NCBI GenBank assembly: GCA_000004985.1
Contig: GG738915.1
DNA: 64,000 nt
From: Naegleria gruberi
Lineage: Eukaryota
Strand: one strand, 5' to 3'
A program made the translations under genes and the position numbers. Below, in pieces: positions 8,401 through 31,758 of this stretch. Positions within the stretch are counted from its first letter, which is position 1. The number at the start of each line of letters is the position of its first letter. Under the pieces are notes generated by a model that saw nothing but the letters and a program-made list of their open reading frames with translations, made no database searches and was not told where the DNA came from.

Positions 8401-8602
8401 TATCATTGGATGGAGTAAATACAGTCATCACCAAATTGGAATGCTTAATTTTGGAGCTAGTGGAAAGTATACAGATGTCTATGAAAAGAATCAGATTACA
8501 ACAAGAAATGTTGTTGAATCTTCTATCAAGTTAATCGATAGATATAAGAAATCAGCTCCAAGTTTAATTCTTGCTCCATTGAAGGAAGAAAAAGCGTTAT
8601 AA
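5483..8602 (+). CDS. Transketolase with an in-frame N-terminal ~365-aa MalE-like (bacterial solute-binding protein family 1-like) domain
   Basis: The C-terminal ~670 aa is unmistakably transketolase ([41 protein letters not shown], pyrimidine- and C-terminal domain motifs). The N-terminal part shares several colinear blocks with E. coli MalE ([22 protein letters not shown] vs [75 protein letters not shown] vs [53 protein letters not shown]). An internal Met ([11 protein letters not shown], around 6578) lies exactly where canonical transketolases start. Confidence 0.8.
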   Translation: [1039 protein letters not shown]

Positions 8603-10400: not shown

Positions 10401-12744
10401 AATTCTATCAAGAATATTACAGTAAATAGTTGTTCAACTCAAGATGACAGAGAGAGAATATATTGATGGTCGCTTGATTGATTTCGAAAATTGATGATCC
10501 CAACCTAAACTCATATAAGGATGAATTCAATGAGGGCAATCCGATTAAAAAACCTATGCTTACTCTTTCAAGAAGTGATTCCCAAAATCAATATAATGCT
10601 TGTCCTTTGTCCTTGATGGAAATCTATGAACGGCTTTTAAAAAACTGAAAATGATGATCCTATTGATGCCGATATCCTGTCTTTTTTCGATATAATTTAT
10701 CCTCTTCTCCTTTGAGGGAGTGATGATGCAAACAATTGTTGAATGAAAATTTACAATTCTTCTACTACGGTTTTTAAATTGTTTTTCAATTTCCTCAATT
10801 CTTCTTCTTCTTTGCACAGATTATTATTCAGCAAATCAATTTTTAAATTAAAATCCGTATTGCTCTCTCAATATATATATTAAAATTAATTATCAGTTAT
10901 CGGAGCAATGAGGAAACACGATGATGAGGAAAAGTCCTGCAAACTCTCAAACTCTAATCGGATGATGATGAAATTTTTTAGAATGATGAAAAAAACTAAG
11001 GCAAGAACTCTCTTGCCGATATGAAGAGGTTGTGATGTTTATTATCTCTCGAGAGTTTTCATAGAGAATGTACAATCATTGATTTGAATCAGAGCAAGTC
11101 AAATTATTTGATGTTTTATATTCAACGGTGTTTGACAGGTGGCTAGCAAGAGAGATTTAAGGAGAAACCTTTGAAAACTGAATAATGGAGCAAAAGGAGG
11201 AAGAGCGGAATATAGAAATCTTGTCTATTAAGGCACAATTTGTGCTCCTTATCCAAATCAAAAAGGTCAAATAAATTAATTTTACTGTACTTCCAAAAGG
11301 GAGTCAGTATTCTCCCAACCACAAAAAGGTTCCATAGAATGGCATTGAAGCTTTTTCTATCAATACTATATTTCTTAGCAGTAGGAACAGGAGTAAAAGA
11401 TCTTAGCATGCATCCAACGATGCATCCTCCTCATCATACGAAATCTGCCTTGGCAACTAGCTTCCAAATAATATATCGCAGAAGGACCAATTCTATCGAA
11501 CTGACATCCACAATTGAAAATGACAAATATCCATTTGGAACAACATACTGTGGCGGTGTTAGCTTGTGATGCTGTAAAATAATCCACAATTATAAGCATC
11601 GAACAGGTTCATGATGGTGCATACTTGGTGTTGCTGCAGTCTTCTTTTATTTTGTGAATTGTGAGTTTTACATGCATTGTTGAATATTTGATATTAGATA
11701 TTTGAAAGATATAATTGACGTGATTTGATAAGAATAGTTATGCTCTGATATTGTGATATCATTGTTGATTGAATTTAATAACTAACACTTTTTCCTTGCC
11801 TTCATACATCAAACATTCCTTATTAGTAAATGGTGTTATTTGTCATCTTTGTGGTGCAATACAGGAATTTTCAAATTGTGTAACGAGATTTCGTGGCGCC
11901 ACAAAAACCCTCCACAAATCTCTTATTGGGCTTACCTTTCACAATAAAACAATTTAAAAAAAAAACACCAATAACACTAGAGCCAAATTATTTTCTCATC
12001 GTGGAGAGAGAAATTTCGAGAGGCCCATTATCAACACTATTACTCATCATCTTCCGTGCTTGTCTATCACCACGAGCTACCAACTATTGTTGAATATATA
12101 GAGAATATATATCAACAATTACATCTTTATTGTTGATCATCATCAACATTGTCATCAATTGTGTCGAGTGAACCAAATCACCTTCATATTTGAGATCACA
12201 CATTCTTTTGGCAAGATATTGATCTTTGTACTCTATTCATTGGTTCATCAAATCCATTTATAGATTTTTCATTTTCAAATCTCTATTGCTTTACCTATTC
12301 AATAGTGTATTTTGTAATCACTCTCATAATTTTGTCCCTTCACAACACCCACCACACTATTATTCTGCTGTGTATTGCACATTGTGTTTGCTTGACTGAA
12401 AAAAAATTGCAATACACCTTAATTTAACAAATACCCACACAAAGAAGAAGAACACCAAAGAGTACTCTCTTGTTGTGTGTGTATTGACAATCAATTGCTG
12501 AAGCTATCAGACCAACAATTACACTCTAACCCATTACACTCTTTTCCTATACTTTCGAGAGAAGTAATATTCCTGCTAACTATTTGGTTCATTCTCCCAC
12601 ACATACATACTCATCAATTACTCTCCACAAAGAACACCTTTCTACTTCCGGAAGTTTGTCTCTCTGCTATTACATTGAATATCACCACTACCACCACTAC
12701 CAAATTCACAACCCAATATTTCTCTCCATTCATACATACTCAAG

Positions 12745-14665
12745 ATGAATAATAATAATAGAAGGCCAACTACATTCAATCCTTGTGTTGCCAATACAAA
12801 TATCAGACGTGCCAATGATGAAAATACTCTCCTGCAACAACAACAATACAACTCGTACAATTCAAAGTATGAACCATTCCAATCGAGAGAAATCCTCAGA
12901 GATGTTACCAATTCAGCCTCTTCGAATCAGAGAAATGTCATGATGCAACAAGGTGTCTGTTCTCAACAACAGCAACCACTCAAACCAAACACTATTGGTC
13001 AAAACAATTACTATAATTCTCAAAACAATATACCTAAAAAACCATCGAGTGCTAATCTTCCACAACAAACTCAACCATACAAGAATGTTGTGCAACAAAC
13101 AAATAGCAATACTACAACAATATATAACTATGGACAACGACCATTGAATGCTCCAAACACTTATCAATACTCCCAACAACAACAGCAACCAATTACTCTC
13201 CAACAACACCATCCCCAATATAATAATTCCTCCTCAAATAGTCGAGGATTTTTACCACAACATTCTTCCNNNNNNNNNNNNNNNNNNNNNNNNNNNNNNN
13301 NNNNNNNNNNNNNNNNNNNGAGATGAGGATGAAGAAATGGCTTACTTTGAAGATGAAGAAGAATTGACAGAAAATAACACAATTCCAATCGTGCCTTCGA
13401 TTGGTGTTGGTTATTCAGTTACTTCAGCTGCTGTTGCTTCTGGTTACATGTCCGCAACATCTGTATTTGCTAATCCAAGCAGTACCAGCTCTGTTTCTCA
13501 AAGCTCTTCCTATTTTTCACAACAACAACAACATTCTTCCAGTAATAATAATTTTGTTGCAGAAGATCCAGCCAATACATCCTATGAAAGTGATGAAGAA
13601 CCACAAAAAGAACCAACCAATTTACTTCCATCCATGCAACCATTGTACTACTTTAGAGAACATCACACCGGCTCTGGTACAATTAATGCATCAACTTGCA
13701 ATATTTTAGTGCCTCCACCAACTAATCCTGAAGATGCTCGTTGTATGAGATCTGTCATCTTTGCTACTGATGTTGAAGCTGAAGTTTTGGAAAGCATGCG
13801 CTTAACTCAAATGAAAAACAAACCAAATCCAAGATATATGGAAACTGTACAAACTGATATTACCAGTAACATGAGATGTATCCTCGTTGATTGGATGAAT
13901 GAGGTTGCTTCCATGTACACTCTTTCACCAGAAACATTATATTTGGCTGTTAATATTCTGGATAGATCCCTCTCCAAGATGTCTGTCAGAAGAAACAAGT
14001 TGCAAGCATTTGGTGTCGCTTCTCTCTTCATCTCTTCAAAGTTTAACGAGATTACTCCTCCAGAGTTAAATGAATTCATCTATATTGCAGATGACACTTA
14101 TGGAAAGGAAGAAGTTCTCATTATTGAGAGAATAATTTTGAACAACCTCGAGTTTGAACTTGTTACTGTTCAACCTTATGATTTTATTGAAAAGTTTTTG
14201 CAAATTTGTGGTGTTGTCGACAATCCTATTGTCAAATACTTGACTTATTACATTTGTGAAATGCAATTACAGAATATTGAAGTTCTTAACTTTCCACCTT
14301 CTGTTATTGCAGCTTCTGCATTGATGATTTCCTTGTATTTGATTGACTTTAATTATTGGAACTCTGAGTTGGCTTGTTGTTTTGGTTTTTCCAATCAAGC
14401 TTGTCAAGGTAACTCATCACTCACTCCAGAAGACGAACAATTGGTTGGTATTGTCAATGAATGTCTTTCCTCCATGTTTAGATTCTATGTTGGTATGGCC
14501 ACAGGCAGGATTAATTTCTCTGCCGTGAGATCCAAGTACTGTCACATGGTTTTCCAAGGAGTTGGTGAATGCACAAGAAAGGTTGATAAGGAACCACCAT
14601 TCATTCCTTCAGTCAGCAAGGGTAGCAATCCAAGTACCTCAACCACACCAAATTACCATCCTTAA
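12745..14665 (+). CDS. Mitotic (A/B-type) cyclin with an N-terminal destruction box; the model is interrupted by a 50-N assembly gap and the frame changes across it
   Basis: Two cyclin-box folds (MRCILVDWMNEV...FGVASLFISSKFNEITPPELNEFIYIADDTY...EFELVTVQPYDFIEKFL...YLTYYICEMQL). D-box REILRDVTN at 12886..12912 (RxxLxxVxN). The N/Q-rich N-terminal exon (frame 1, 12745..13269) and the post-gap part (frame 2, 13320..14665) are connected only through the N run. Confidence 0.75.
13270..13319. other. Assembly gap (50 N) inside the cyclin coding region
   Basis: Run of n characters; the reading frame of the surrounding ORFs shifts across it. Confidence 0.95.
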
Positions 14666-14810
14666 TAAACAATTCAAAAAGAAACAATTCTATGGAAATG
14701 CAATCAGTCCGTCTTGTAAAATAGTCCGCCAAATGCAAGTCGCTCAATTCTTTCAAAAACATTTCAACAACTGGATCCACAAAAGAACTATTCAAATATA
14801 TGAAAAAAAA

Positions 14811-16625
14811 ATGTTTAGAAATCAAAGATCAAACTTCAAGCGCCTGATGCACCAACCATCATCAATTTACTTGTACTTCATTCTATTACTATGCAGTTGT
14901 GTTGCTTGTATTTGTGCATCTTCTGAAATCTCGGAAGATGATCATCAAACACCTCTCACTCTTCTCATTTCCATAGTTTCACCTCCCCTGATTGGACCCT
15001 TTGGTAATATCATTCGATCACATGCTATTGCAGTGGAGGCAAGGAGAAGAGGCATTCGAGTGGCTTGGATGATGGGCAGGAATTATCAAAAGGCAGTTCA
15101 CAAGGTTCTGGAAACAATGGCCACAAAAAAGACACTTTCAGATAACGAAAGACAATTTCATGATCATTCTCGAGATTTGTTCTATTATTTGGAGACTATT
15201 CCAGTGCTTGGATCGATTTTGCCTGAATGGTTGAGTCATCAATTGACTTTGAATGGAACGAGAAAGATGGACACTGAAATTCCAAGTTTCATTCCACAAT
15301 TGATGGGTGAAAGAACATTTGGCAATTTCTATTTAGTTTTAATGATGGCAGGTTTTGCAAATGGTTCCATTTTAAGAAAATTACTCAAGGAACAATTGGA
15401 AATTATTCAATTGACTAAACCTTTTGCAATTGTTAAGGAACTTGAAGTTTCAAGCTCAGTTTCAAGTTATTTAACTGGAATTCCAATTGTAGAGACAATT
15501 TCCACCCCAATTCTCAATGGAAGACATGCAAATTATTTTTCCTCTTTTGTAAATGGTGCAACATTTGGAGTGTTGAATGAATTTTTGGAGGGAAATGAGA
15601 AATTGTTTCCAACAGTAGCAAGCTATGATGATTTGGCATTCAGAGCTAGGAATTTAAAGGTTGCTTATACTATCCCTGAATTGGAAACTCCATTGGTGAA
15701 TGAGAGACCAAATGTTTCGTATATTGGAATGGCAAATGTTCCATTGTTTTTACAATCGTTTACAACAATTGAGGAGAAATTGGAGGCCATTGAGAGAAGA
15801 AAGCAGGAATTACTCAAATCTTATCCAAATCAAAGAGTTTTATTCTTTTATTTTGGAAAGGGATCCATTCCATTCGAAACTGTTGAAAAGGAAATTCCAC
15901 AATTTTGTAAACTTTTGAATGAAAATGTGAAATCTGTGGATAGTAAGGAATATCACTGCTATATAGTTGCAGATAAAGCTAAAGAACCATACACCATTGA
16001 AAAGTATTCACATTTCAAGTCATGGTTTGATGGTGATGACATGACATTAATTAGTGAGCTGACATTTAATCATGGTGGAGCTAATAGTGTCATGCAGAGT
16101 ATTTATTATGGAGTCCCACAAGTAGTGAGTGCAGGATACATGTTTGAAAGAGTATTCAATGGTTTATCAACAGAAATTGGGAAGTGTGGAATCTTGTTGA
16201 ATCCAGACGAATTTCGTCATGAGATAATCTTTGAGAAACTCTTCTCAGACGACTCTTTTACTTTCAAAAAGCTGAAAGAAGATTCTAAAATCATTCAGAG
16301 AAAACTAATGGAACGTGGAGGTGCCAATCAATTATTCTCAGATATTGAAATTTGGTTGAATAGAAGTTTGACACCTTCTGCCAAGTGGCAGGAAGAATCC
16401 AGACAACGTGATCAATTAATTTCGAAAGTTTTACTTCCAAACATCAATTATATCCTTGAAAGAGATGCTCATTTGGAAAAATCAATTGTTGGTAAATTGA
16501 GTTTGATTTACAGAGATGTTGGCTTGGTGATTCCTTCTATAATTTTCACATTAATTGTCTTTCCAATGATAGTTTCCATTCACATGATCAAAATTATTTC
16601 ATTCCTTTGCTGTTGCAAAAAGTAA
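14811..16625 (+). CDS. UDP-glycosyltransferase (GT1 family) with an N-terminal signal peptide and a C-terminal membrane anchor
   Basis: PSPG/UGT-like signature FNHGGANSVMQSIYYGVPQVVSAGYMFERVFNG near the C-terminus. Signal-like MFRNQRSNFKRLMHQPSSIYLYFILLLCSCVACICASS, and a C-terminal hydrophobic helix (VIPSIIFTLIVFPMIVSIHMI). Start chosen at ATG 14811; the ORF is open from 14562 but overlaps the cyclin 3' end. Confidence 0.55.
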   Translation: MFRNQRSNFKRLMHQPSSIYLYFILLLCSCVACICASSEISEDDHQTPLTLLISIVSPPLIGPFGNIIRSHAIAVEARRRGIRVAWMMGRNYQKAVHKVLETMATKKTLSDNERQFHDHSRDLFYYLETIPVLGSILPEWLSHQLTLNGTRKMDTEIPSFIPQLMGERTFGNFYLVLMMAGFANGSILRKLLKEQLEIIQLTKPFAIVKELEVSSSVSSYLTGIPIVETISTPILNGRHANYFSSFVNGATFGVLNEFLEGNEKLFPTVASYDDLAFRARNLKVAYTIPELETPLVNERPNVSYIGMANVPLFLQSFTTIEEKLEAIERRKQELLKSYPNQRVLFFYFGKGSIPFETVEKEIPQFCKLLNENVKSVDSKEYHCYIVADKAKEPYTIEKYSHFKSWFDGDDMTLISELTFNHGGANSVMQSIYYGVPQVVSAGYMFERVFNGLSTEIGKCGILLNPDEFRHEIIFEKLFSDDSFTFKKLKEDSKIIQRKLMERGGANQLFSDIEIWLNRSLTPSAKWQEESRQRDQLISKVLLPNINYILERDAHLEKSIVGKLSLIYRDVGLVIPSIIFTLIVFPMIVSIHMIKIISFLCCCKK

Positions 16626-16678
16626 TACATTTCACATTCATTGTAAACATTATTAAATATTTTTAAATATTATTAAAC

Positions 16679-18148
16679 TTGTGGCAAATTCACAATTTCA
16701 ATAAAAAAAATTATAAAAAAATGCCAGAACTCGTTAGAGCCCACTCCTATCATCATCCCTCTCCAATTTTTCCTTCCCAAGATGAAAATTCATCACTCTA
16801 CATGTCGTTGGAATTATTTGAATATCATTTGGACTTGAGAAGTGCCTTCGGAACAAGTCATTCTTCAACCACAAGAAGAAAGAATGCTCTCATTAGAATT
16901 TCCATTCATTCTCGTGATGAAAAAATTATATTTGATGGATTTGGTGAATGTGGTTTGCCTCCTAAAAAGGCAAATTGTTATTTGGCTGATTTTAATGATA
17001 TCCAATTTTATTTTGAGCAATTTTGTGAGAATTTAAAGGTGGAATTGCAAAAAAACGAATTTAATTGGAAGGAAATGATCGGAAATGCTTTTAAAAATGT
17101 TGACGAAAAATATTTCACACTCGTAAGAAAATTGGCTGATGAAAATGCAAGTTTGAATGGAAAATTGCAAAGTATTCCATTGATATTGTTAAATGGATTG
17201 GATCAGTATGAATATCTTGATCAGATTGGAGAGAAACATCCAGAATTTGAACATTGTGCTCAGTGTGGAATTGAAATGGCTATTTTCGACTTGTGGGGAA
17301 AGATTCTCGATAAGCCATTGTATAATTTAATTGGGATTGAACCTCCTGTTCAGAAATTTGCATTCTACACAGCTGCTCTCAATGAAGATATTGGAGAAAT
17401 TGTAAAAACAGCTCGATTTGGATTGGAAAAGACCAGACATTTGAAAATGAAACTTGATTCTGACATTGAAAAGGGAATTTTAATATTGAAAAACTTGATT
17501 GAGACCTACGAGAAGGATTATATTCATGAAAATTCCAAACCTCATTGGTCAATCGATGCCAATTCAGCTTGGACTCCAGAAACTTCACTCGAATTTCTCC
17601 AACAATTGAAAGAAAAACTTCCAAACTTTCTTCCATACTTTTACATGTTGGAACAACCATTCCCAATCCTAGTCGAAAGCTCAGAATCATCCAAATGGGA
17701 ACAAGTCAAACAAGCTTACGAAAATGAGGGAATTTTAATTTTTGCCGATGAAAGTGTCAATACTTTTGAAAACATTGCCAACATTCAATCTTTCATTCAT
17801 GGAATTAATATTAAATTGGAGAAATCTGGAGGAATTAGAGGAGCTCTGACAGTTTCAGAGCTAGCCAAGAAACATTACAATTTAAAGTTGTGGTTTGGTT
17901 GCATGGTTTCAAGTCGATTGAGTTGTACTTGTTCTTCACATTTAATGAGTTTGGCAGAAATTGGAGGAGATTTGGATGGTTCATTGCTTGTTGCTGAGCA
18001 TTCTCAAGGATTTGAAGGAGGTTTTGATTGGAGAAACGACCAAGTTTCGAATAGTGAAAGTAGAATCGGAAGGAATCATGGAGAAATTGTCTTGTTGGAA
18101 AAACCAGGTATTGGAGTGGATATCAAGAAGGATACTATCAGAAAGTAA
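16679..18148 (+). CDS. Enolase-superfamily enzyme (mandelate racemase/muconate lactonizing enzyme family; dipeptide epimerase-like)
   Basis: MR/MLE-type N-terminal capping domain (RSAFGTSHSSTTRRKNALIRI...DGFGECGLPP) and C-terminal barrel motifs (IFADESV...INIKLEKSGGIRGALTVSELAKKHYNLKLWFGCMVSSRLS). The true start may be Met 16721 or 16802. Confidence 0.6.
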   Translation: MWQIHNFNKKNYKKMPELVRAHSYHHPSPIFPSQDENSSLYMSLELFEYHLDLRSAFGTSHSSTTRRKNALIRISIHSRDEKIIFDGFGECGLPPKKANCYLADFNDIQFYFEQFCENLKVELQKNEFNWKEMIGNAFKNVDEKYFTLVRKLADENASLNGKLQSIPLILLNGLDQYEYLDQIGEKHPEFEHCAQCGIEMAIFDLWGKILDKPLYNLIGIEPPVQKFAFYTAALNEDIGEIVKTARFGLEKTRHLKMKLDSDIEKGILILKNLIETYEKDYIHENSKPHWSIDANSAWTPETSLEFLQQLKEKLPNFLPYFYMLEQPFPILVESSESSKWEQVKQAYENEGILIFADESVNTFENIANIQSFIHGINIKLEKSGGIRGALTVSELAKKHYNLKLWFGCMVSSRLSCTCSSHLMSLAEIGGDLDGSLLVAEHSQGFEGGFDWRNDQVSNSESRIGRNHGEIVLLEKPGIGVDIKKDTIRK

Positions 18149-18804
18149 TCTTTGCTTTTGTTTAATATTTTTTAAAAGCAAAATAAACATTGTTCACACT
18201 ACAGTTTCCATTACAATTCATTCGAAACTACAGAAACTTTTTATACAATCAACACAGCAGGTTAAAATCATGGAAGGAACCCGTAGTGGAAAATTCTGCA
18301 AGAGGCAACCATTTAATTGAAATAAAGTCATCGAATGTCCAAAGACGGAAATGGGACTGTCAATTGTCATCTTTGCTTAGTGAACTATTTGATAGAAAGT
18401 GAATGACTTTTCCAGACATTTAACACCCTGAAACATGACATTATTTAATGTTTGGCTAATTTTCACATTTGGTCAAACATTAAATCAAGAAACATCCAAT
18501 TTTAAACTCGTCAAAATTTTATTGTTGCTAAAATGAGAACAAGAGCTAATTTGTGAAAAACATATCGAAATGGATTTTGATAAATTGACTTGGATTGAAA
18601 TCTCATCCTTCCATAGAATGAGAAAGTAATAATTCGAAAGGTTTCTCATTCGAAATAGCTCTCTTGAGAGGTTCTCGGCTCTTGTGTGAGATTTTGTTAG
18701 TGTTACATTGGTAAAATATAGATAGGAGTGAAAATAAGTGGTAGTTTCTATGCCTCCAAGGAAAAGAAAGCCACTTTTAGTTTGGGAAATGATTCGTCCA
18801 GTTT

Positions 18805-20481
18805 CTAATTGGTCCATTGTAGCAAATCTTGAATGGAAAGTTCAATTAATTGCTCTGGTTGAGAAATGAATGGTGCAATTGCTGGATAGTACTTGGTAAT
18901 GGTTCTAAAATGTTCTCTATTTCTATTATGATTTTTCAAGCTTAATTGTTCGAAACTTTGCATGGAAACTAAACATCTCTTCATGCAATTGTTGAATTCT
19001 TCAATTTCAATGACCAATGAAGATTGTCCTTGTGTTTCATGATCTTCAACATTGTTTCTCTCAATTCTGGACATTTCTTCAAAGTAAATCTTGAGGAATT
19101 TTCTGATAATCGAAACTGATTTGAAATTCGAATGTGGAGCAAGCATTTGGAAAGCCAATACGAAACAGGATAGAGCAACAAGTGAAGGTCTAAACCACAA
19201 CATGTCATAATTGTGTAATTGAATTTCACATAGATAATTAGAAACCTTTTCCATAAAGTTTACAAAATTATCAGCTTCAACCAAAGATGGAAAAGCTTGT
19301 GTGAAATTTTGATCATTCTTCATGGCATGAATGAACAAGGCAACGTAATCAATCAATAGAATGGATCTCAACTCAAAATCCAAGGTATTCAACACCCAAC
19401 TTTCCATTCTCAGCACTTGTTTCTTCAAATCTTCAATAGACGAATCAGACGAAACTGGTGGTAAAATATCACTCAAGTTGACCGATCTACCATAATACTT
19501 GGTTGATATAAAAAAGCATGCACATCCCAATGCCTGCAAATTATCAACATCTATCAAATAATACTGTTCAATATTAAATCTGTCAAGTGAACGATCAAAA
19601 ATCATTGTTGCATGATAGAGAATTTCCTTTGGAATGTCAAGTTCTGTTTGGAGAATATTAAACCAATCGATAACTGTTCTTCTATATTGTGGTTTGACAT
19701 GTGGATGAGTGGAAAGATAATTAGCTTTTGCACAGTTGATAGTTTCACGTGAAATGTTATCTGAAAGTAATTGAAAACTATCTGAAACTTCAACAGCTTC
19801 TTCTTCGTCAGCTTCTTCTTCGTCATCTTCTTGCATGGAATCAACATCTTGATTAGCACATTCTTCTTGATTACTATTCGAATCATGGTCTTGACTCAAA
19901 ATAATTTCTTCAACACTATCTTCCATAGTTTCGTATTGTTGACTTTCTTTTTCTGGATGAATGGAAAATGAGGTAGCGCTCCAACTGCAGGTAATTTCAT
20001 CTTGGGCAAGTGTCGAAATTGGTTCGGCAGTTTCGGTTTCGTTTAAGGAAGGAGATATATACGAATGACCATTGACAAGCTCTTGCTTTACTTCTCGAGA
20101 TTGAAAAGGTGTTGGTTGGATTGTGTTGAGGGCGGTGGTGGAAACGTCTTCTTCACATTCCCAAGTAATTTCTTCTTGTTTTTCATTCACTTTATGGGCG
20201 AGAGCATGTATACGAATTGAATCGAAAGTGGACGAAACTCGAGTCTTCTTTGTAATCTTGCTCTGAAGAGTTTCTACTGAATCAGATTGTGATGAATAGC
20301 TTGTTGTTAGAGAATTTGTCTTTCTCTTTAAATTATTCGAAACTTTTTGGCGCCAACCTTTCATCACGACTTTCTTACCACCAGAACACATTCTCATAAA
20401 TGTACAAGGTGAAAGTCCACCTAATTGTTGTTGATTTCTTCTCGAATTCATTGTATTTAAAATAAAATTACAATTTTCCAT
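18805..20481 (-). CDS. Cyclin-like protein (cyclin N- and C-terminal folds) with an acidic insert; third cyclin paralog in the window
   Basis: RRTVIDWFNILQTELDIPKEILYHATMIFDRSLDRF...LGCACFFISTKYYG...LDFELRSILLIDYVALFI...NYLCEIQLHNYDML match the cyclin fold. Acidic stretch DSMQEDDEEEADEEEAVEV. No clear D-box found. Confidence 0.6.
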   Translation of the reverse strand: MENCNFILNTMNSRRNQQQLGGLSPCTFMRMCSGGKKVVMKGWRQKVSNNLKRKTNSLTTSYSSQSDSVETLQSKITKKTRVSSTFDSIRIHALAHKVNEKQEEITWECEEDVSTTALNTIQPTPFQSREVKQELVNGHSYISPSLNETETAEPISTLAQDEITCSWSATSFSIHPEKESQQYETMEDSVEEIILSQDHDSNSNQEECANQDVDSMQEDDEEEADEEEAVEVSDSFQLLSDNISRETINCAKANYLSTHPHVKPQYRRTVIDWFNILQTELDIPKEILYHATMIFDRSLDRFNIEQYYLIDVDNLQALGCACFFISTKYYGRSVNLSDILPPVSSDSSIEDLKKQVLRMESWVLNTLDFELRSILLIDYVALFIHAMKNDQNFTQAFPSLVEADNFVNFMEKVSNYLCEIQLHNYDMLWFRPSLVALSCFVLAFQMLAPHSNFKSVSIIRKFLKIYFEEMSRIERNNVEDHETQGQSSLVIEIEEFNNCMKRCLVSMQSFEQLSLKNHNRNREHFRTITKYYPAIAPFISQPEQLIELSIQDLLQWTN

Positions 20482-21699
20482 GTATGGTATATAATAGTTG
20501 AATATTTAAAACAAAACTACTTGATAAAATTAACAACAAGTATGAACCTACTCAAAATTCAATATATCAATATTTGAAAAATTAATGTTCTCTCGGGATC
20601 AACAACACTGATGCCAAATGCCAGCTGTCAAAGTAGTTTTTTTTTCTTCGTCATCTTGATTACTAGCACTCTGCACTCGCCAACTTCAATATTTTGGCCC
20701 TTCGTCTAAAAGCCTATTGGTTTGTTATTGCGTTGACACTTGAAAATTTCACACTCTAGTGGGTTGTCAATAACCCTAATTCGGAAGGCAACTTTTTGGG
20801 AAGATTTGAAATTCCACATCTTAAGGCTATTGCGAATATTAACAATGGACATGGAATTAAACTCCAATACATTATTATTATTGAATGATTACAATTTGTA
20901 ACACATCCTTTGAAAACTTTCCAATAGTTTGAAAATATTGGAAAGTTTTCGAATTGACTTTTCGATGTGTTGATATCAAATAAAGAATGTACATTGAAAC
21001 AAATGAAAAAAAGAGGATGGATGGTCAATGAATGTGTAATCCTTTCTACTGAGATTGAAAACGTGCTCTTCATGGTCGATTTTCGAATAACCTTGATTGT
21101 AATGTTATCCTAAATGGCAAATGGATGAACCATCACATCAAAGATCTGAAGATTTTAAAGCAAGTTGGTGTCTTCGTCAAAATGGGTATTTTACTATTAT
21201 CTTTTTAAAGAATCAACATGTCATGTTTGAAAATGTTGTCATGTGACATTTTGGTGAAGAAAACAATTATTGTACAGTAAATTCTCAAACACCGTTCACA
21301 GTAGGAAAACCACGTCATCTTCTTTAATACTGTAAATTATTATCTTTTCACACTTTACAATAATGCTGCACCAGCCCTACAATCCTTTCGTATAATATTT
21401 GACACACAATCAACAGACCCTATCCAAATCAACTCAGAGCACAAGCCAACTTGGATTTACACTCATTTTATTAGGATCATGCACCGTACTACTTTCGAAT
21501 AGTTTTCTCCTATCAATGAACTTGTTGAGCACATGACTATTACGGATAATTTACTAGTTTCTGTAGAGCACTTATTGTAAAACAGTCATTTTACTGTAGT
21601 GTGGTAATGGTTAGAAAATGACCAAGAAAAGATAATTGGTAGAGTTGAGCACGTTTCGGTGGTGAAATTTTGCATTTTACCTTTTTGGGATGGTGTTCA

Positions 21700-21845
21700 C
21701 TTCCGAGGTGAAAATTTTTGATGTTCGTAGATTTTCAAATACAAATGTGCTCGTCTCGTGGTGTAATGGTAGCATAGTGGACTTTGAATCCATTGACGGA
21801 GGTTCGATTCCTCCCGAGACGGTAAACGTGGCGAGCCATAAGAAT
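21700..21845 (+). repeat. Left arm of an inverted segmental duplication carrying tRNA-Gln plus ~50 nt 5' and ~22 nt 3' flank
   Basis: The flanks tgatgttcgtagattttcaaatacaaatgtgctcg and ggtaaacgtggcgagccataa recur reverse-complemented at 23878..24030. Confidence 0.7.
21752..21822 (+). tRNA. tRNA-Gln (anticodon TTG)
   Basis: Cloverleaf readable by eye: acceptor CGTCTCG/CGAGACG, D-arm GGTGTAATGGTAGCA, anticodon loop CTTTGAA, T-arm GGAGGTTCGATTCCTCC, discriminator G. No encoded CCA. Confidence 0.85.
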
Positions 21846-21928
21846 TTTGCATCGATACTTTTATTTGCTGCTATCAAGGTTTTATGATTACAATTTATTA
21901 TTTGCTCGATTTCCTGTTGCTTATTTAC

Positions 21929-22786
21929 TTATAAACACAATTGATTAGAAAGATGTCTCTTCAATTCACTATTATATCCAAATTGTGTCTTTCTTCTAAT
22001 ACCATACTCTTCAATTCGTTTCTTGAAAGATTCCAATAGACTTGGTACATATTTCTTACCCAACCATTCCTTCATATTGGAACAAACACCTGCCTTAACA
22101 TGAATTCCACTCTGTTGTTGACATAGTGAACTGCCAGCAAGAGATGGATATTCCATATTGACAAAATAAGTTGCCTGAATGTTTCCATTCTTTAAATCTT
22201 TGAGTATCCATTGACCACCATGTTTCTTGAAGGAGGATTCACAATTGATGAGACAGTTGGATGAGGATGAGTTGAATTGGATGTGTTCTGGACTAATGAC
22301 TTTGACTTGGAGTGTATATTCAACGGTGGAAAACATGAATGAACTCTTAAAAGTTACTGTATAGTCTTGTTTCGTCTCCTTTCTATGGACATTGGCTACA
22401 AAGTAACCATCCAAGAATTCAGGATATCTTTCAAAATCTGTGATAATGTCCAAACAATCTTTTAATGTCACATTTTCAAAAATGATGGATTGAGAAGTGG
22501 CATTGACAAGATCACATTCAATGAAATGACGCCATTCTTCACTGAATGAAGGAGCTGTACTGCATGAAGGCACAACAGCTTGAGGTTTCTCTGTTGTTGT
22601 CACTGGAATCAATTTACTGTCAATTGTCGATTCAACAATATCAATGAGTTGAGCTTGATTGCTGGCAGTTGACTGAAACAATGCTGGTGAAGAAGTAGTT
22701 TTACAACGATGAAAATGTTGCATTGCCTTTGGAGAATCAGCTTCAAACAAGTGGGGATGATGTGAGTGATTGATCAATGAAGACAT
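21929..22786 (-). CDS. Hypothetical protein with an SRPBCC (START/Bet v1/COQ10-like) lipid-binding-type domain, tentative
   Basis: 285-aa ORF. The central region (VTLKDCLDIITDFERYPEFLDGYF...YTVTFKSSFMFSTVEYTLQVKV...HGGQWILKDLKNGNIQATYFVNMEYPS) has the beta-grip pattern of polyketide-cyclase/COQ10-type domains. Identified from memory only. Confidence 0.4.
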   Translation of the reverse strand: MSSLINHSHHPHLFEADSPKAMQHFHRCKTTSSPALFQSTASNQAQLIDIVESTIDSKLIPVTTTEKPQAVVPSCSTAPSFSEEWRHFIECDLVNATSQSIIFENVTLKDCLDIITDFERYPEFLDGYFVANVHRKETKQDYTVTFKSSFMFSTVEYTLQVKVISPEHIQFNSSSSNCLINCESSFKKHGGQWILKDLKNGNIQATYFVNMEYPSLAGSSLCQQQSGIHVKAGVCSNMKEWLGKKYVPSLLESFKKRIEEYGIRRKTQFGYNSELKRHLSNQLCL

Positions 22787-23704
22787 TTTGTTTCGTTTAG
22801 TTTCTTGTATTGACGATAATGTGGATGCTCAATTTATAGTAATTGGAAAGCTCACTGTGATGTTGTAGTGCAATCCAAATAAGAGTTTTTTAATATGAGT
22901 TGTGTGTTTACAATGTAGATGATATGAAATCCAATCTTCTACTTTTCCAAATATATTAAATTATCTAATTTTATATAAAAGTATAACTGGATTATATTTT
23001 CTCTCACTTTTATAAACAATGTAACAGTTCTCTATCTAATTGAATCTATTAATTACTCTAGTCCAATTGAACAGAAAGTTTTCGTTTTGTTGATTTTTTC
23101 TGAAAAAGTTGCACAAGATCTAGAAGCACTGCAAACAAAGCAATGAAATTGTTGTATTAACTGTTTGGAAGAAGTATGAGTGCTGTGGTGATGGCGTTGA
23201 TGATCTTTTTTGATGAAATTCCAAAAGAGGACAAGATAAAAAGTTTGGTTGGATATCAAGTTGGAGCAATTTGCAATTTTGTTCTTCAGGAAGGTGTGAG
23301 AATAAGGAACATTTATGGTTTTCAGAGAATGGTAAGGTTTGGAGAATTGTGTAAATTTGCAAGAGTTTGAAAAAACTGTAAATTGGAGAAATTGTAGTGG
23401 AGGAGTTTTTGTAAAAGAAGAGAATATCGATATTGGTAACTAGTACAACTATTAGAAGAACAATACTTAGATTGGAGAGATGACAATGAATGCGATCAAT
23501 TTCATGATCATCTCAGTTTTGGTAGGTCCTATTGATTAAATGAGACGATAGGTTTGATAATGGTAAGTAAATTAAAGTGGAATACGCACTAATGTGTTGC
23601 AAAAAATCGACATTGGTTGACAAATTGACGGTTATAATAAGCGAGGGTGAAAAGGTATCTTTGTTTGTGATGATTGTTCGTGGGTGTAAAAATTCCTGCT
23701 TACT

Positions 23705-23775
23705 TGCGTCGACCGGGAATTGAACCCGGGTCACGGCGATGGCAACGCCGTATTCTACCACTAAACCATCGACGC
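23705..23775 (-). tRNA. tRNA-Gly (anticodon GCC)
   Basis: The reverse complement reads GCGTCGATGGTTTAGTGGTAGAATACGGCGTTGCCATCGCCGTGACCCGGGTTCAATTCCCGGTCGACGCA: acceptor GCGTCGA/TCGACGC, anticodon stem CGGCG/CGCCG with loop TTGCCAT, T-loop GGTTCAATTCC. Confidence 0.85.
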
Positions 23776-23877
23776 TTCTCATGTCCTTCTATAATAATAC
23801 ATAACTGAATATAAATGGTATTTGAGCTAGGTCAAATTTAATTTCTTGAAGAAATCCACAAACAAAAAATTTAAAAA

Positions 23878-24030
23878 TTGTTATGGCTCGCCACGTTTAC
23901 CGTCTCGGGAGGAATCGAACCTCCGTCAATGGATTCAAAGTCCACTATGCTACCATTACACCACGAGACGAGCACATTAACTGTTCAAAATCTTCGAATA
24001 TCATTGATTTTCAATGATAATCTTAGAAAA
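23878..24030 (-). repeat. Right arm of the inverted tRNA-Gln duplication
   Basis: ttatggctcgccacgtttacc ... cacgagacgagcacattaactgttcaaaatcttcgaatatca is the reverse complement of the 21700..21845 region with a few substitutions. Confidence 0.7.
23900..23970 (-). tRNA. tRNA-Gln (anticodon TTG), inverted duplicate of the copy at 21752..21822
   Basis: Exact reverse complement of the + strand tRNA-Gln, including shared flanks (ggtaaacgtggcgagccataa and the upstream aatgtgctcg). Confidence 0.85.
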
Positions 24031-25594
24031 CCTCCAATGTGCAAAATTTCTTATTAACCACATTTCCAATCAAACTCAAATTATACAACCAATATCGTTT
24101 TGTCCAAATATGCCCCTTCTCTTTTTTTTTACATCTTTCTAAGAAAGCTGCCTTAATAACCTAGAACTGCTTATTTGACCTCCAAATTTGAGCCACTGTA
24201 CATCTTTTACTGTATCGTAAGATAGTTTCCTTATTCGATAAGCTTCACAGGCCGAAATCAATAGACAATAAGCGTTCTTTCTTATTAAAAACAATACAAT
24301 TACTTTTTTTCAAACTGTAGATGAAGGCATTACAACAATTTATGGAGAATTTTGAATGAATTTATTCACAGCTGTAGTAGAATCTATCAGTAGGCATGTG
24401 GTTGTATTCGCATCCAATTTGGGACTCTTGCAGTTTTCAATATTGAACAAGATCCAATTTAAATTATTAAATGGTCGTGAGTCATCATACAAAGCACTCA
24501 TCCATGCAGTGTGAACATGAATTTTCACATCTTCAATATATTTGTTTCCAATATAAATATTTAATAGGAGATAGAATGTAGAGCGAATTAAACCAGTTGA
24601 GGCAGTGAATTGCATATGATAAATATCTGAATAATGATCCAATATTGGATTGATTAAATACTTTCTGAGGTTTGTTTATTTCCTCATTCGAATAAGTGAC
24701 TTGATTCGACGATAATGATCTGAATCATCGATTCTTTACAAAATATTAAATAATCCAAAACTAATAAATGAGTATTTAATCGCTACTACACTATTTCTCG
24801 AAACATTGATAGAGTTCCTTATAGGCCTTGTTGAAATATTTAGGCTTTCATATCCACAATATTGGTAATCGAATAACCTTCTCAAAATATTGAACAAACT
24901 TCATGGACACAATAAAAGTCATAATGACCTGTCAAGAAACTGCCAACTACAACATGTCAACCCAGCTTTCAAATTATGATAATGGTCGCCTCGTGTTCGC
25001 GCCATTAATTTTAATCATTTTCTGATAACATGCTCCAATTATTACAATACGGAAATTCCTCAATCATCATCATTCAGATTCAAATGACAAGAAGCGCACC
25101 AGCCATTTTCTTCCTCTCATCCATCATGCTCTTAAATTGGATGTTATTCTCTTTCCGTTTAATCGACAAACAAAAGAGAGAAAATCGCAAGAAGCGTTTT
25201 GTTTGTGCTAAGCAACGCGTTGTTGTGTAGGTGTGCACAAAGGTGGTAAGGCAAAAAACCTTTAAATTGGACGCTTCCCATTGCACCTGAGTCAATAGTC
25301 CACACAAAAAGAAAATTCCAATTCAATCACAAGCAAAAAGTGTAAAAAGAAAGAAGCACAGTCACCCTCTCTGATTCTATTCTTTTCCACACAACAAACA
25401 CCAATATATAATTTATATAGCCGAGCGAGTAATTCACAAATTTATTGATGATTGCATAATACATATTACCATTTCAACATCAATATTGAATTTCTACATA
25501 CATTTAGTCGAGTCCTATTATCTATTAACCTTTCGGAATCTTTGATCTCCAATTACTTACCTATTATTACTATTATTACTATCTTTGAGACAAT

Positions 25595-27265
25595 ATGTTC
25601 AACAATAATTCGAGTGTTTCCACAATGATGACCACAACCACAAGTAGTACTACCTCTACTACTACTACAAGAAAGCCTCCTGTTGGTAAACCAATTCTCT
25701 CCAATACTTCCCTTGCCTATACAAATGTTGAAGAATCTATTGATACGAGGACACCACCTTCTCTTGTATGTAACTCACCTTCTTCAGTGTTTCATCATCA
25801 TGGAGGAGCAAAGAGACAACCACACAGAGAAGCCTTGGCCAATATTACCAATTCTCATGAGGTTCAACATACCTCCTCTACAAATGATTTGAATAAGAGA
25901 GTAGCACAAGCCAATAATTATTCAAATCTGAAAGTGAATACTCATTCTAGTTCTACTTTCACTACATTATCCACTGCTAGTACTAATACTCAATGTTCTA
26001 AGAGTTTTTTGAATCCATACTCCTCTGCCAATGGTAAGACAAACGCAGCAGCAGTAGCAGTATCAGTACACTCAATGATTCATTCGAATAGTGCTAGCAA
26101 TAACACTCAACAATTTAACACTTCGAGCCAACACCATACCCAACAATATACAGAGGATCAACAAACATTCGAGCAACAAGTTGAATCCTCATCATCACCA
26201 CTCAGTTCTGAACAAGATCCAAATGCCTTTAATGAGTTCTCAATGGAGGCCTCTGATGAAAACTACTCTTCTGACGAAGAGATGGATGAATCAGAAGATG
26301 ATGGTGAACAACAAGCACCACCAATCGATCCAGATATCTTCAACTCTGTCGATAAGAACAGGCTTCAAGCTATTATGGATTTGAATATCAGAAATCCAGC
26401 TAACCTCCTTCCAAAAAGTTCTTTGAGAACTTTAACACAAACTCATCTTCCAATCGATGTGGAAGATGATATTCTTTCCTATTTATTCAACAATCAAAGT
26501 TACAAGCAAGTTTCTCCTCACGTTTGGCGAACAACTCAAAAGAATGTCAATGCCAAGATGCGTACCATGCTCGTCGAATGGATTGCAGGTGTTGCTGTAA
26601 GTTTCAAACTCTTACCTGAAACACTCTACCTTTCCATTGACATTTTAGATAGATTCTTGTGTAAAGTTTGTGTTAGCAACGTTAAACTTTTACAAGGATA
26701 TGGTTTGGCTTGTCTTTTCATTGCTGCCAAGTATTGTGAAACTGCTCCACCTCCACTCAGACAATTCTTATTTGCTGCTGATAATACTTATACAAGAGGA
26801 TTGATTTTGAGTTTGGAGAGTGAGATTTGCAATGCTTTAGACTTTGAGTTGTGTTCCATTCAATCCTTTGACTTTGTTGAAAAGTTTTTGGAACTCATTG
26901 GACATGTTAACAATGCCAGAATCAAATGTTTGGCCTATTATATCTGCGAATTGCAACTCCAAAACTTTGATGCCCTACAATACAACAAGAGTGGTATTGC
27001 CCTCTCTTCAGTAATTATTGCCTTGTATGTGACTGGTACTGCCTGTACATTGGAGGGCCTCGTTGCATGCTTGGGTGGTAATACTGATCTTGCCAATATC
27101 ACTTATATCAATAATTGTGTCATGGCTGTATACTGTTATTACGTTCAAATGTCAATGGGTGAAATCCAACACAATTTCATTAAGGACAAGTATGCCAGAC
27201 AATCATTTGGTGGTGTGTCCACCATTGGCTTTACCAGTCGAATTTCTCCAAGTATCAGCTTTTAA
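25595..27265 (+). CDS. Mitotic (A/B-type) cyclin with an N-terminal destruction box; paralog of the cyclin at 12745..14665
   Basis: Cyclin boxes MRTMLVEWIAGVAVSFKLLPETLYLSIDILDRFL...YGLACLFIAAKYCETAPPPLRQFLFAADNTY...DFELCSIQSFDFVEKFL...CLAYYICELQLQNFD, colinear with the first cyclin over ~250 aa. D-box REALANITN at 25826..25852. Ser/Thr-rich N-terminus. Confidence 0.7.
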   Translation: MFNNNSSVSTMMTTTTSSTTSTTTTRKPPVGKPILSNTSLAYTNVEESIDTRTPPSLVCNSPSSVFHHHGGAKRQPHREALANITNSHEVQHTSSTNDLNKRVAQANNYSNLKVNTHSSSTFTTLSTASTNTQCSKSFLNPYSSANGKTNAAAVAVSVHSMIHSNSASNNTQQFNTSSQHHTQQYTEDQQTFEQQVESSSSPLSSEQDPNAFNEFSMEASDENYSSDEEMDESEDDGEQQAPPIDPDIFNSVDKNRLQAIMDLNIRNPANLLPKSSLRTLTQTHLPIDVEDDILSYLFNNQSYKQVSPHVWRTTQKNVNAKMRTMLVEWIAGVAVSFKLLPETLYLSIDILDRFLCKVCVSNVKLLQGYGLACLFIAAKYCETAPPPLRQFLFAADNTYTRGLILSLESEICNALDFELCSIQSFDFVEKFLELIGHVNNARIKCLAYYICELQLQNFDALQYNKSGIALSSVIIALYVTGTACTLEGLVACLGGNTDLANITYINNCVMAVYCYYVQMSMGEIQHNFIKDKYARQSFGGVSTIGFTSRISPSISF

Positions 27266-31301: not shown

Positions 31302-31758
31302 TTTGTAAGCTTGACTGAATACGCAGATGTGGAAGTTTAACGGTTTGTATTCGTTAGGGTGCGAGAGGTTGTATCTAGGTCTCGCGTTATTTTTTTGATT
31401 TATTTTTAATCGCAAAGTGTTTTTGAATCTTGCTTTTAGCAAGCGAAAACAAGGTGAAGCAAAAAATTGGGTTTTGGTTGAATCTTTTTTTGGCGCCAAA
31501 AATAAAGTGTTACAATGAAAACATGGGAAATCTTGAGTATTGAAAAGGAAAATAGTCCTTTTTGTTGGAAAGGACAACAATATCTAATCTCAATAACTGC
31601 AAGAAACATTTTCTTATGATCTTATTTGGTCAATTTCTTTTTATTAATTGTAAAATCCATTGAAACTCTTCTTAGTTTGATTTGACGTGTTTATTGTAAA
31701 CCAAGTTCACAATCTCCATCACCAAATGACAATCTTTTAATAGACTTCATCAAAAAAA

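What the first reader, a model, noticed from the sequence alone, without database searches (positions are those of the whole stretch)
12745..27265. Three paralogous cyclin genes within 15 kb, two with canonical N-terminal destruction boxes
The cyclins at 12745..14665 (+) and 25595..27265 (+) are colinear over both cyclin folds. Each carries an RxxLxxhxN D-box (REILRDVTN; REALANITN) in an N/Q/S/T-rich N-terminus, which points to APC/C-regulated mitotic cyclins. A third, more divergent cyclin-fold protein lies between them on the opposite strand (18805..20481) with an acidic insert and no D-box. Clustering of three cyclin paralogs alongside other tandem paralog pairs in the same window suggests local segmental duplication driving cell-cycle gene family expansion. 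Fungal cyclin genes are normally dispersed.
Basis: partly seen in the sequence, partly recalled or inferred. Interest (0 to 1): 0.6.

Follow-up and report, generated by a model that had tools for sequence, protein, structure and literature searches.

The report
Conserved three-cyclin cluster in Naegleria
Three real cyclin genes sit within 15 kb, but the genome is the amoeba Naegleria gruberi, not a fungus; they are old local duplicates of one A-like cyclin, two are already annotated and published, and the cluster is also present in a sister species, so this is a tidy but modest finding.

Summary
All three ORFs have Cyclin_N and Cyclin_C domains. The outer two carry strict RxxLxx[ILVM]xN D-boxes (REILRDVTN, REALANITN).

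- The window is Naegleria gruberi (Heterolobosea), not a fungus.
- Cyclin 1 is broken by a 50-N assembly gap (13271..13320) that hides 413 nt. The true protein is 760 aa.
- Cyclins 1 and 3 are already published as NgruCycAa and NgruCycAb (Medina et al. 2016).

Duplication: cyclins 1 and 3 are each other's closest relatives (96% bootstrap; reciprocal best profile scores). The divergent middle cyclin joins them (84% bootstrap; shared derived motifs). Local duplication of one ancestral A-like cyclin is therefore supported, but it is ancient. Nucleotide similarity is limited to 112 nt inside the cyclin box, and no flanking genes are duplicated. All three have orthologues within about 24 kb in N. 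lovaniensis, with one block inverted. The cyclin 1 lineage is already distinct in Willaertia.

D-boxes: they are conserved in five of six orthologues and reduced to REILADITP in the sixth. Naegleria has Cdc20 and Cdh1, so APC/C-driven destruction is a sound inference.

Cyclin 2: it keeps the CDK-contact Lys/Glu pair and a confident double cyclin fold. It lacks any D-box or KEN box, has a degenerate MRAIL patch and evolves fast.

Interest is low to moderate.

The parts
12745..14665 (+). Cyclin 1 = NgruCycAa (NCBI 'cyclin-like protein'). An A-like cyclin with a D-box, both cyclin folds and an intact MRCIL patch. The true length is 760 aa.
   Evidence: Pfam hits. 100% match to the N. gruberi protein P0044, and the full-length P0045. 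Named NgruCycAa in Medina 2016 source data. Best PDB sequence match is cyclin A2, 142 bits, against B1 at 116 bits.
12886..12912 (+). D-box of cyclin 1, REILRDVTN (residues 48-56).
   Evidence: Translation. Conserved as REILKDVTN in P0046 and in N. lovaniensis, and as REVLSEITN in Willaertia. Chance of occurrence about 1.4% in shuffles.
13271..13320 (.). 50-N assembly gap inside cyclin 1. It hides 413 nt (138 codons) and causes an apparent frameshift.
   Evidence: Sequence. L004 positions 1410..1822 span the gap. The NCBI 612-aa model splices round it, whereas the intact protein is 760 aa.
16679..18148 (+). Mandelate racemase/enolase-family gene. It is not a cyclin. It serves as a synteny anchor, lying tail-to-tail with cyclin 2 in both Naegleria species.
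   Evidence: Pfam MR_MLE_C. The orthologue, 55% identical over 543 aa, lies next to the N. lovaniensis cyclin 2 orthologue in the same convergent arrangement.
18805..20481 (-). Cyclin 2, a fast-evolving lineage-specific cyclin with no D-box. It has a disordered acidic N-terminus and a double cyclin fold. The NCBI model starts at Met40.
   Evidence: Pfam. An exhaustive HMMER search finds only itself below 1e-30; the best other hit is N. lovaniensis C9374_004714, E 6.9e-19. The AlphaFold model has pLDDT mostly 85-95 over residues 230-510, and Foldseek matches cyclin A2 chains with target-normalised TM 0.6-0.73. No D-box or KEN box; the MRAIL equivalent is YRRTV.
25595..27265 (+). Cyclin 3 = NgruCycAb (NCBI 'cyclin A', UniProt D2VZL5). 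An A/B-like cyclin with a D-box.
   Evidence: 100% match to P0001. Named NgruCycAb. Pfam. PDB sequence matches: B1 104 bits, A2 94 bits.
25826..25852 (+). D-box of cyclin 3, REALANITN (residues 78-86).
   Evidence: Translation. REILGNITN in the positional orthologue P0002 and REILADITP in N. lovaniensis. Chance of occurrence about 0.9% in shuffles.

Best explanation
This is a stretch of the Naegleria gruberi genome carrying an old, locally duplicated family of three cyclin genes. All three descend from one ancestral A-like (A/B-type) cyclin within the heterolobosean lineage.

Shown:
- The three genes form one clade apart from the species' B-type cyclins.
- They have stayed linked since before N. 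gruberi and N. lovaniensis diverged. One inversion or transposition has moved the block MR_MLE-cyclin 2-cyclin 3 relative to GSAP16-cyclin 1.
- No duplicated flanks remain.

Inferred:
- Cyclins 1 and 3 (NgruCycAa and NgruCycAb) bind a Cdk1/2-type kinase through the conserved Lys/Glu contacts. They recruit substrates through an MRAIL-type hydrophobic patch. They are destroyed in mitosis when APC/C with Cdc20 or Cdh1 recognises the conserved N-terminal D-box in a long disordered N/Q/S/T-rich tail.
- Cyclin 2 has kept the CDK-binding fold but lost the degron and the canonical substrate-docking patch, and it evolves rapidly. It is probably a sub- or neo-functionalised CDK partner whose level is not set by the APC/C.
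For: Identity: 100% matches to N. gruberi proteins on one 260-kb scaffold.

Family: Cyclin_N and Cyclin_C in all three.

Prior classification: NgruCycAa and NgruCycAb in Medina et al. 2016.

Common ancestry:
- NJ tree of 37 cyclins, 250 columns, 200 bootstraps: cyclin 1 + cyclin 3 clade 96%; adding the cyclin 2 pair 84%. NgruCycB1, B2a and B2b group with B-type cyclins.
- Reciprocal profile scores: the cyclin 1 group against the cyclin 3 HMM scores 246-303 bits, against 227-238 for A-type and 181-214 for B-type. The cyclin 3 group against the cyclin 1 HMM scores 249-265 bits, against 151-186 for A-type and 132-180 for B-type.
- Derived motifs are shared by all three groups and absent from reference cyclins: LQ[AG]xG in place of LQL[VLI]G, FEL[CVR][ST][VI], and [YF]Y[ILV][CG][ED]xQL.

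Age and linkage:
- On N. lovaniensis contig PYSW02000021.1 the cyclin 3 orthologue, the cyclin 2 orthologue and MR_MLE lie just upstream of GSAP16 and the cyclin 1 orthologue. All are within about 24 kb.
- The Willaertia cyclin groups inside the cyclin 1 clade at 90%.
- Environmental P0002 is a positional orthologue of cyclin 3; its downstream neighbour is the orthologue of window ORF 30045..31583.
- DNA similarity between the cyclins is limited to 112 nt at 70% inside the cyclin box, and no flanking genes are paralogous.

Degron: D-box conservation and a chance rate of about 1%. Naegleria encodes one Cdc20 and one Cdh1 (PMC3195147).

CDK contacts: equivalents of cyclin A2 K266 and E295 are kept in all three, and these columns are invariant in A3 (K328, E360).

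Cyclin 2 fold.
Against: - No experimental data exist here on CDK binding, periodic expression or degradation.
- Placement of cyclin 2 could owe something to long-branch attraction. N. gruberi cyclin 2 alone scores no better against the heterolobosean profile (70 bits) than against the A-type (74) or B-type (84) profiles. Only its N. lovaniensis orthologue clearly prefers the heterolobosean profile (116 against 78 and 66).
- The tree is distance-based, not maximum likelihood. Assignment to cyclin A rather than B is weakly supported for cyclin 3.
- The N. lovaniensis cyclin 3 D-box has Pro in place of the final Asn.
- Willaertia shows no second cyclin within 10 kb of its cyclin 1 orthologue. The cluster may therefore be specific to Naegleria, or may have broken up in Willaertia.
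Confidence: 0.8

Rival explanations
1. Chance or ancient co-location. The three cyclins belong to anciently distinct pan-eukaryotic subfamilies (for example A, B and an orphan) that merely happen to lie near each other, with no local duplication.
For: Cyclin 1 scores best against cyclin A2 and cyclin 3 marginally best against cyclin B1 in PDB sequence searches. N. gruberi cyclin 2 scores slightly better against a B-type profile than against the heterolobosean profile. No residual DNA similarity or duplicated flanks remain.
Against: Cyclins 1 and 3 are reciprocally closest by profile score and form a 96% bootstrap clade. The genuine N. gruberi B-type cyclins group elsewhere. Lineage-specific motifs are shared by all three groups. 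The N. lovaniensis cyclin 2 orthologue prefers the heterolobosean profile by about 40 bits.
Confidence: 0.1
2. Recent segmental duplication in N. gruberi. On this view it is part of ongoing tandem expansion in this window.
For: Another tandem paralogue pair lies in the window at 48.4-51.7 kb, at 48.6% amino-acid identity and with 62% DNA identity still detectable over 959 nt.
Against: The cyclins share only 26-37% amino-acid identity. DNA similarity is limited to 112 nt at 70% in the most conserved part of the box. Each has its own orthologue in N. lovaniensis, and cyclin 1 also in Willaertia. No flanking gene is duplicated.
Confidence: 0.02
3. Cyclin 2 is a decaying or non-functional duplicate. 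It would be a pseudogene in all but its open frame, rather than a working CDK partner.
For: Only 29-33% identity between the N. gruberi and N. lovaniensis copies, against 67% for cyclin 1 over the same columns. It has lost the D-box and has a degenerate MRAIL patch. No other homologue scores better than generic cyclins in an exhaustive search.
Against: Long intact ORFs (558 and 667 codons) are kept at the syntenic site in two species. The invariant cyclin-box residues, including the Lys/Glu CDK contacts, are retained. The double cyclin fold is predicted with confidence.
Confidence: 0.08

Closest known systems
Cyclin A (animal CCNA1/2, plant CYCA), as assigned by Medina et al. 2016 (NgruCycAa, NgruCycAb)
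   Same: Two cyclin folds. An MRAIL-type patch (MRCIL in cyclin 1, MRTML in cyclin 3). Conserved Lys/Glu CDK contacts. An N-terminal D-box in a disordered tail. Cyclin 1 scores highest against cyclin A2 and against an A-type profile.
   Different: Much longer N/Q/S/T-rich N-termini (about 320-500 aa before the box). Lineage-specific substitutions in otherwise near-invariant motifs, such as LQAxG in place of LQLVG. No ABBA motif was found in cyclins 1 or 3. Cyclin 3 is not clearly A rather than B by score.
Adjacent B-type cyclin gene pairs in Saccharomyces cerevisiae (CLB2-CLB5 and CLB1-CLB6)
   Same: Paralogous D-box cyclins kept as neighbours after an old tandem duplication, with the copies diverging in function. 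The adjacency is from my own knowledge of the systematic names YPR119W/YPR120C and YGR108W/YGR109C. It was not checked with a tool here.
   Different: A different eukaryotic supergroup and an independent duplication. Here there are three genes, separated by unrelated genes and tRNA genes, and one copy has lost its degron.
N. gruberi B-type cyclins NgruCycB1, CycB2a and CycB2b (Medina 2016 source data)
   Same: Same genome and the same A/B superfamily. CycB1 has a D-box (RTCLGDISN) plus a KEN box.
   Different: They are encoded outside this window and group with B-type cyclins rather than with the cluster. They keep the canonical LQLLG and ELSL motifs.

Membership tests
Cyclin superfamily (Pfam Cyclin_N PF00134 + Cyclin_C PF02984) | Significant matches to both cyclin-fold domains | tested here: met
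   All three exceed the gathering thresholds for both domains. The cyclin 2 model matches cyclin A2 structures.
Mitotic A/B-type cyclins | N-terminal destruction box (RxxLxxxxN) that is conserved in orthologues | tested here: met
   Met for cyclins 1 and 3. Strict motifs occur in N. gruberi, P0046, N. lovaniensis cyclin 1, Willaertia and P0002. N. lovaniensis cyclin 3 keeps RxxLxxI but has Pro in place of Asn.
Mitotic A/B-type cyclins | Destruction box or KEN box in cyclin 2 | tested here: not met
   No RxxL-type D-box or KEN box lies N-terminal to the cyclin box in N. gruberi or N. lovaniensis cyclin 2.
Mitotic A/B-type cyclins | Conserved CDK-contact Lys and Glu (cyclin A2 K266 and E295) in the first fold | tested here: met
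   Present in all three and their orthologues in the alignment. K328 and E360 of cyclin 2 are invariant across 20 sequences.
Mitotic A/B-type cyclins | MRAIL hydrophobic patch for RxL substrate docking | tested here: inconclusive
   Cyclin 1 has MRCIL and cyclin 3 has MRTML, both conservative. Cyclin 2 has YRRTV and its N. lovaniensis orthologue NRLTL, both degenerate. Function cannot be judged from sequence.
Cyclin A subfamily specifically | Phylogenetic placement with cyclin A rather than B, B3, E or D | tested here: inconclusive
   Medina 2016 labels cyclins 1 and 3 as CycA. Cyclin 1 scores A above B. Cyclin 3 scores A about equal to B. My NJ tree puts the clade outside both core groups, and I did not examine support for those deeper nodes.
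APC/C substrates | Cdc20- or Cdh1-dependent ubiquitylation and mitotic degradation | not testable with these tools
   Only the degron and the reported presence of one Cdc20 and one Cdh1 in Naegleria (PMC3195147) are available.
Tandem or local gene-duplication cluster | Clustered members are each other's closest paralogues | tested here: met
   96% bootstrap for cyclins 1 + 3 and 84% when cyclin 2 is added. Reciprocal best profile scores for cyclins 1 and 3. Weaker for cyclin 2.
Segmental duplication | Duplicated flanking sequence or flanking genes | tested here: not met
   Self-BLASTN and all-against-all ORF BLASTP find no similarity outside the cyclin boxes.

The most novel reading that the evidence does not exclude
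Linkage of the three paralogues across Naegleria species might be maintained by selection, as a co-regulated cyclin locus. On this reading cyclin 2 would be a rapidly evolving, APC/C-resistant CDK activator recruited to Naegleria-specific biology, such as the amoeba-to-flagellate switch with de novo basal-body assembly, or its unusual closed mitosis. The present evidence neither tests nor excludes this.
Probability: 0.1. Interest if true: 0.5.

Novelty: new member of a known kind. Interest (0 to 1): 0.25.

Why it matters
Naegleria is one of the few free-living discoban protists with a near-complete 'ancestral' cell-cycle toolkit, and N. fowleri is a lethal pathogen for which CDK pathways are being explored as drug targets (PMC13556005).

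This work adds four modest points:
- Its A-like cyclins are a lineage-specific trio.
- Two of them have conserved APC/C degrons and one is a fast-evolving copy without a degron.
- The public cyclin 1 gene models are wrong. The N. gruberi model skips 138 codons at an assembly gap, and the N. lovaniensis model is truncated at both ends.
- The locus gives an independent example of cyclin paralogues staying linked after duplication.

It does not change how cyclins are understood.

Tried and rejected
1. A window self-comparison at DNA level, looking for residual duplicated flanks, found only a 112-nt match in the cyclin box.
2. All-against-all BLASTP of stop-to-stop ORFs, looking for duplicated neighbours, found none near the cyclins.
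3. E2F-site scans (TTTSSCGC, TTSSCGS), looking for shared cell-cycle promoter elements, gave nothing useful. The only strict site near a cyclin (20346..20353) lies inside the cyclin 2 coding sequence. None lies upstream of cyclin 1, and there is one weak site about 600 nt upstream of cyclin 3. These give no usable signal at the cyclin promoters.
With the cyclin 1/3 alignment it returned no confirmed relatives.
5. An exact look-up of the cyclin 3 protein's contig found nothing on record.
6. An ABBA-like motif in cyclin 2 (FSIHPE, resembling human cyclin A2 FTIHVD) is absent from the N. lovaniensis orthologue, so I treat it as chance.
7. The 140-nt, 91% inverted repeat between cyclins 2 and 3 was considered as possible transposon ends. 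It is explained by two inverted tRNA-Gln(TTG) genes.
8. A literature search for a citable statement of CLB gene adjacency in yeast found none in the papers opened. That point rests on my own knowledge.

Full report
**What is in the sequence.** The window holds three long ORFs at the stated coordinates. Each matches both Pfam cyclin domains above threshold.
- Cyclin 1 (12745..14665, +): Cyclin_N 2.4e-40, Cyclin_C 1.2e-14.
- Cyclin 2 (18805..20481, -): Cyclin_N 8.2e-19, Cyclin_C 2.8e-07.
- Cyclin 3 (25595..27265, +): Cyclin_N 1.4e-31, Cyclin_C 3.5e-10.

Cyclins 1 and 3 are colinear across both folds, 37% identity over 290 aa, E 1e-60. Cyclin 2 is 26-27% identical to either. The two D-boxes are REILRDVTN at 12886..12912 and REALANITN at 25826..25852. 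A strict RxxLxx[ILVM]xN motif appears in only about 1% of shuffles of each N-terminal region. Those regions are 44-45% N/Q/S/T.

**The gap in cyclin 1.** Cyclin 1 is not a continuous ORF in the window. A run of 50 N at 13271..13320 shifts the frame. A 3.4-kb contig from another assembly is 97-99% identical on both sides. It shows that 413 nt are missing and encodes an uninterrupted 760-aa protein, P0045. The NCBI model of 612 aa simply splices around the gap.

**Source organism and prior knowledge.** All three proteins match Naegleria gruberi proteins at 100% identity on one 260,018-bp scaffold. Their NCBI names are 'cyclin-like protein', 'Cyclin_N domain-containing protein' and 'cyclin A', the last being UniProt D2VZL5. 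The fungal framing is therefore wrong. The source data of Medina et al. 2016 (eLife, PMC4862756) list five N. gruberi cyclins. NgruCycAa is cyclin 1, NgruCycAb is cyclin 3, and NgruCycB1, B2a and B2b lie outside this window. Cyclin 2 is not in that set. Two of the three genes were thus already classified as cyclin A paralogues.

**Are the three genes related by duplication?** I built a neighbour-joining tree of 37 cyclins. It used 250 trimmed columns, Kimura distances and 200 bootstraps. References came from the Medina data and from named database hits.
- Cyclin 1 and cyclin 3 orthologue groups form a clade at 96%.
- Adding the cyclin 2 pair gives a clade at 84%.
- The N. gruberi and N. lovaniensis cyclin 2 proteins pair at 98%.
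- The three N. gruberi B cyclins sit with B-type cyclins.

Profile scoring agrees for cyclins 1 and 3. Each group scores best against the other's HMM: 246-303 bits and 249-265 bits. Scores against A-type profiles are 151-238 bits and against B-type profiles 132-214 bits.

For cyclin 2 the signal is mixed. The N. lovaniensis orthologue clearly prefers the heterolobosean profile (116 bits, against 78 for A and 66 for B). The N. gruberi protein does not (70, 74 and 84 bits). By phmmer, the N. lovaniensis protein ranks N. gruberi cyclin 2, then cyclin 1, then cyclin 3, then the B cyclins.

All three groups share derived substitutions in motifs that are near-invariant in reference cyclins:
- LQ[AG]xG in place of LQL[VLI]G.
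- FEL[CVR][ST][VI].
- [YF]Y[ILV][CG][ED]xQL.

The two cyclin 2 proteins also share an insertion at the same loop. I conclude that common descent from one heterolobosean A-like cyclin is well supported for cyclins 1 and 3. It is moderately supported for cyclin 2, where long-branch attraction remains a caveat.

**How old is the duplication, and is it segmental?** It is not segmental. Self-BLASTN of the window finds only a 112-nt, 70% match between the cyclins, inside the cyclin box (14169..14280 against 26859..26970). All-against-all ORF BLASTP finds no paralogous neighbours.

It is old. An exhaustive HMMER search of 1.84 billion representatives with cyclin 2 finds only itself below 1e-30. The next hit (E 6.9e-19) is N. 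lovaniensis C9374_004714. That gene lies on the same contig, four genes from the cyclin 1 orthologue C9374_004718.

The N. lovaniensis locus reads in this order:
- cyclin 3 orthologue (-)
- a 1010-aa gene (-)
- cyclin 2 orthologue (+)
- MR_MLE (-)
- GSAP16 (+)
- orthologue of window ORF 8976..10433 (-)
- cyclin 1 orthologue (+)

All three cyclins there lie within about 24 kb. Compared with N. gruberi, the GSAP16-cyclin 1 segment is colinear. The MR_MLE-cyclin 2-cyclin 3 block is inverted and sits on the other side. Cyclin 2 and MR_MLE are tail-to-tail in both species.

The Willaertia magna cyclin falls inside the cyclin 1 clade at 90%. It also shares GSAP16 linkage, and the orthologue of window ORF 41822..45223 lies just downstream of it. 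No other cyclin lies within 10 kb of it.

An environmental protein, P0002, groups with cyclin 3 at 100%. It is a positional orthologue, because its downstream neighbour is the orthologue of window ORF 30045..31583.

So the cyclin 1 / cyclin 3 split predates the Naegleria-Willaertia divergence. The three-gene linkage predates the N. gruberi / N. lovaniensis split.

**Rates of change.** Core-region identity between the N. gruberi and N. lovaniensis orthologues is 67% for cyclin 1, 49% for cyclin 3 and 29% for cyclin 2.

**Likely function.** The motifs are:
- REILKDVTN in P0046.
- REILKDVTN in N. lovaniensis cyclin 1. It is encoded upstream of the annotated start, in another frame; that gene model is truncated at both ends.
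- REVLSEITN in Willaertia.
- REILGNITN in P0002.
- REILADITP in N. lovaniensis cyclin 3.

Eme et al. 2011 report one Cdc20 and one Cdh1 in Naegleria (PMC3195147). The Lys/Glu pair equivalent to cyclin A2 K266 and E295 is kept in all three proteins. The MRAIL patch is MRCIL in cyclin 1 and MRTML in cyclin 3. In cyclin 2 it is degenerate: YRRTV, and NRLTL in N. lovaniensis.

The AlphaFold model of cyclin 2 has a disordered N-terminus (residues 1-220). Its double cyclin fold is predicted with confidence, pLDDT mostly 85-95. The model matches cyclin A2 chains with target-normalised TM of 0.6-0.73.

The inference is as follows. Cyclins 1 and 3 are CDK-activating cyclins destroyed through the APC/C. 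Cyclin 2 is a CDK partner without a degron and with altered substrate docking. None of this is tested biochemically.

**Subfamily.** Cyclin 1 leans towards A: PDB cyclin A2 142 bits against B1 116 bits, and A-type HMM above B-type. Cyclin 3 is ambiguous: B1 104 bits against A2 94 bits. Membership of cyclin A in the strict sense is therefore inconclusive here, although Medina et al. assign it.

**Comparison and novelty.** Retained neighbouring cyclin paralogues are known in yeast: CLB2/CLB5 and CLB1/CLB6. That rests on my own knowledge, since no supporting statement was found in the papers opened.

The genes are annotated and two are published. What appears to be new is limited to three points:
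- The third, divergent cyclin belongs to the same clade.
- The cluster is conserved in N. lovaniensis.
- The gene models are defective.

This is an ordinary, well-explained feature of low to moderate interest.

Noticed in passing
window 13271..13320: A 50-N scaffold gap inside the cyclin 1 coding sequence hides 413 nt. The NCBI N. gruberi model (612 aa) treats it as an intron, but an independent contig gives 760 aa.
   Followed up: yes
window 21751..21823 (+), 23705..23775 (-), 23899..23971 (-): Three tRNA genes lie between cyclins 2 and 3: two inverted copies of tRNA-Gln(TTG) and one tRNA-Gly(GCC). The Gln pair explains a 140-nt, 91% inverted repeat (21709..21848 / 23874..24013) that brackets the polyketide-cyclase-like ORF at 21929..22786.
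   Followed up: yes
L002 9778..12127 (N. lovaniensis PYSW02000021.1): The N. lovaniensis cyclin 1 gene model (C9374_004718, 596 aa) is truncated at both ends. The D-box exon or ORF (9778..10251) and the C-terminal part (11870..12127) are in other frames. This implies short introns or indel errors in the assembly.
   Followed up: partly
window 48390..49787 and 50007..51716: A tandem paralogue pair, 48.6% amino-acid identity with 62% DNA identity still detectable. The second copy matches the 'fungal' Zn(2)-Cys(6) binuclear cluster domain (E 2.1e-07), which is unusual outside fungi.
   Followed up: no
window 5483..8602 (+): A 1039-aa ORF fuses an N-terminal thiaminase-I-like domain to a complete transketolase. 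It is absent from the corresponding interval in N. lovaniensis.
   Followed up: no
window 31759..35115 (+): An 1118-aa ORF combines aminotransferase class I/II, DFP (DNA/pantothenate metabolism flavoprotein C-terminal domain) and SAM-methyltransferase domains in one reading frame.
   Followed up: no
window 18805..20481 (-), residues 172-177 of the ORF (133-138 of the NCBI model): Cyclin 2 contains FSIHPE, which resembles the ABBA motif of human cyclin A2 (FTIHVD). It is not conserved in the N. lovaniensis orthologue, so it is probably chance.
   Followed up: partly
L003 13337..16465 (Willaertia magna): The orthologue of window ORF 41822..45223 lies about 1.6 kb downstream of the Willaertia cyclin 1 orthologue, but 27 kb downstream of cyclin 1 in N. 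gruberi. The interval holding cyclins 2 and 3 is therefore either an insertion or expansion in Naegleria, or a loss in Willaertia.
   Followed up: partly
window 20346..20356: A palindromic E2F-like site, TTTGGCGCCAA, lies just after Met40 of cyclin 2, inside the coding sequence (codons W-R-Q-K). It is probably coincidental.
   Followed up: partly
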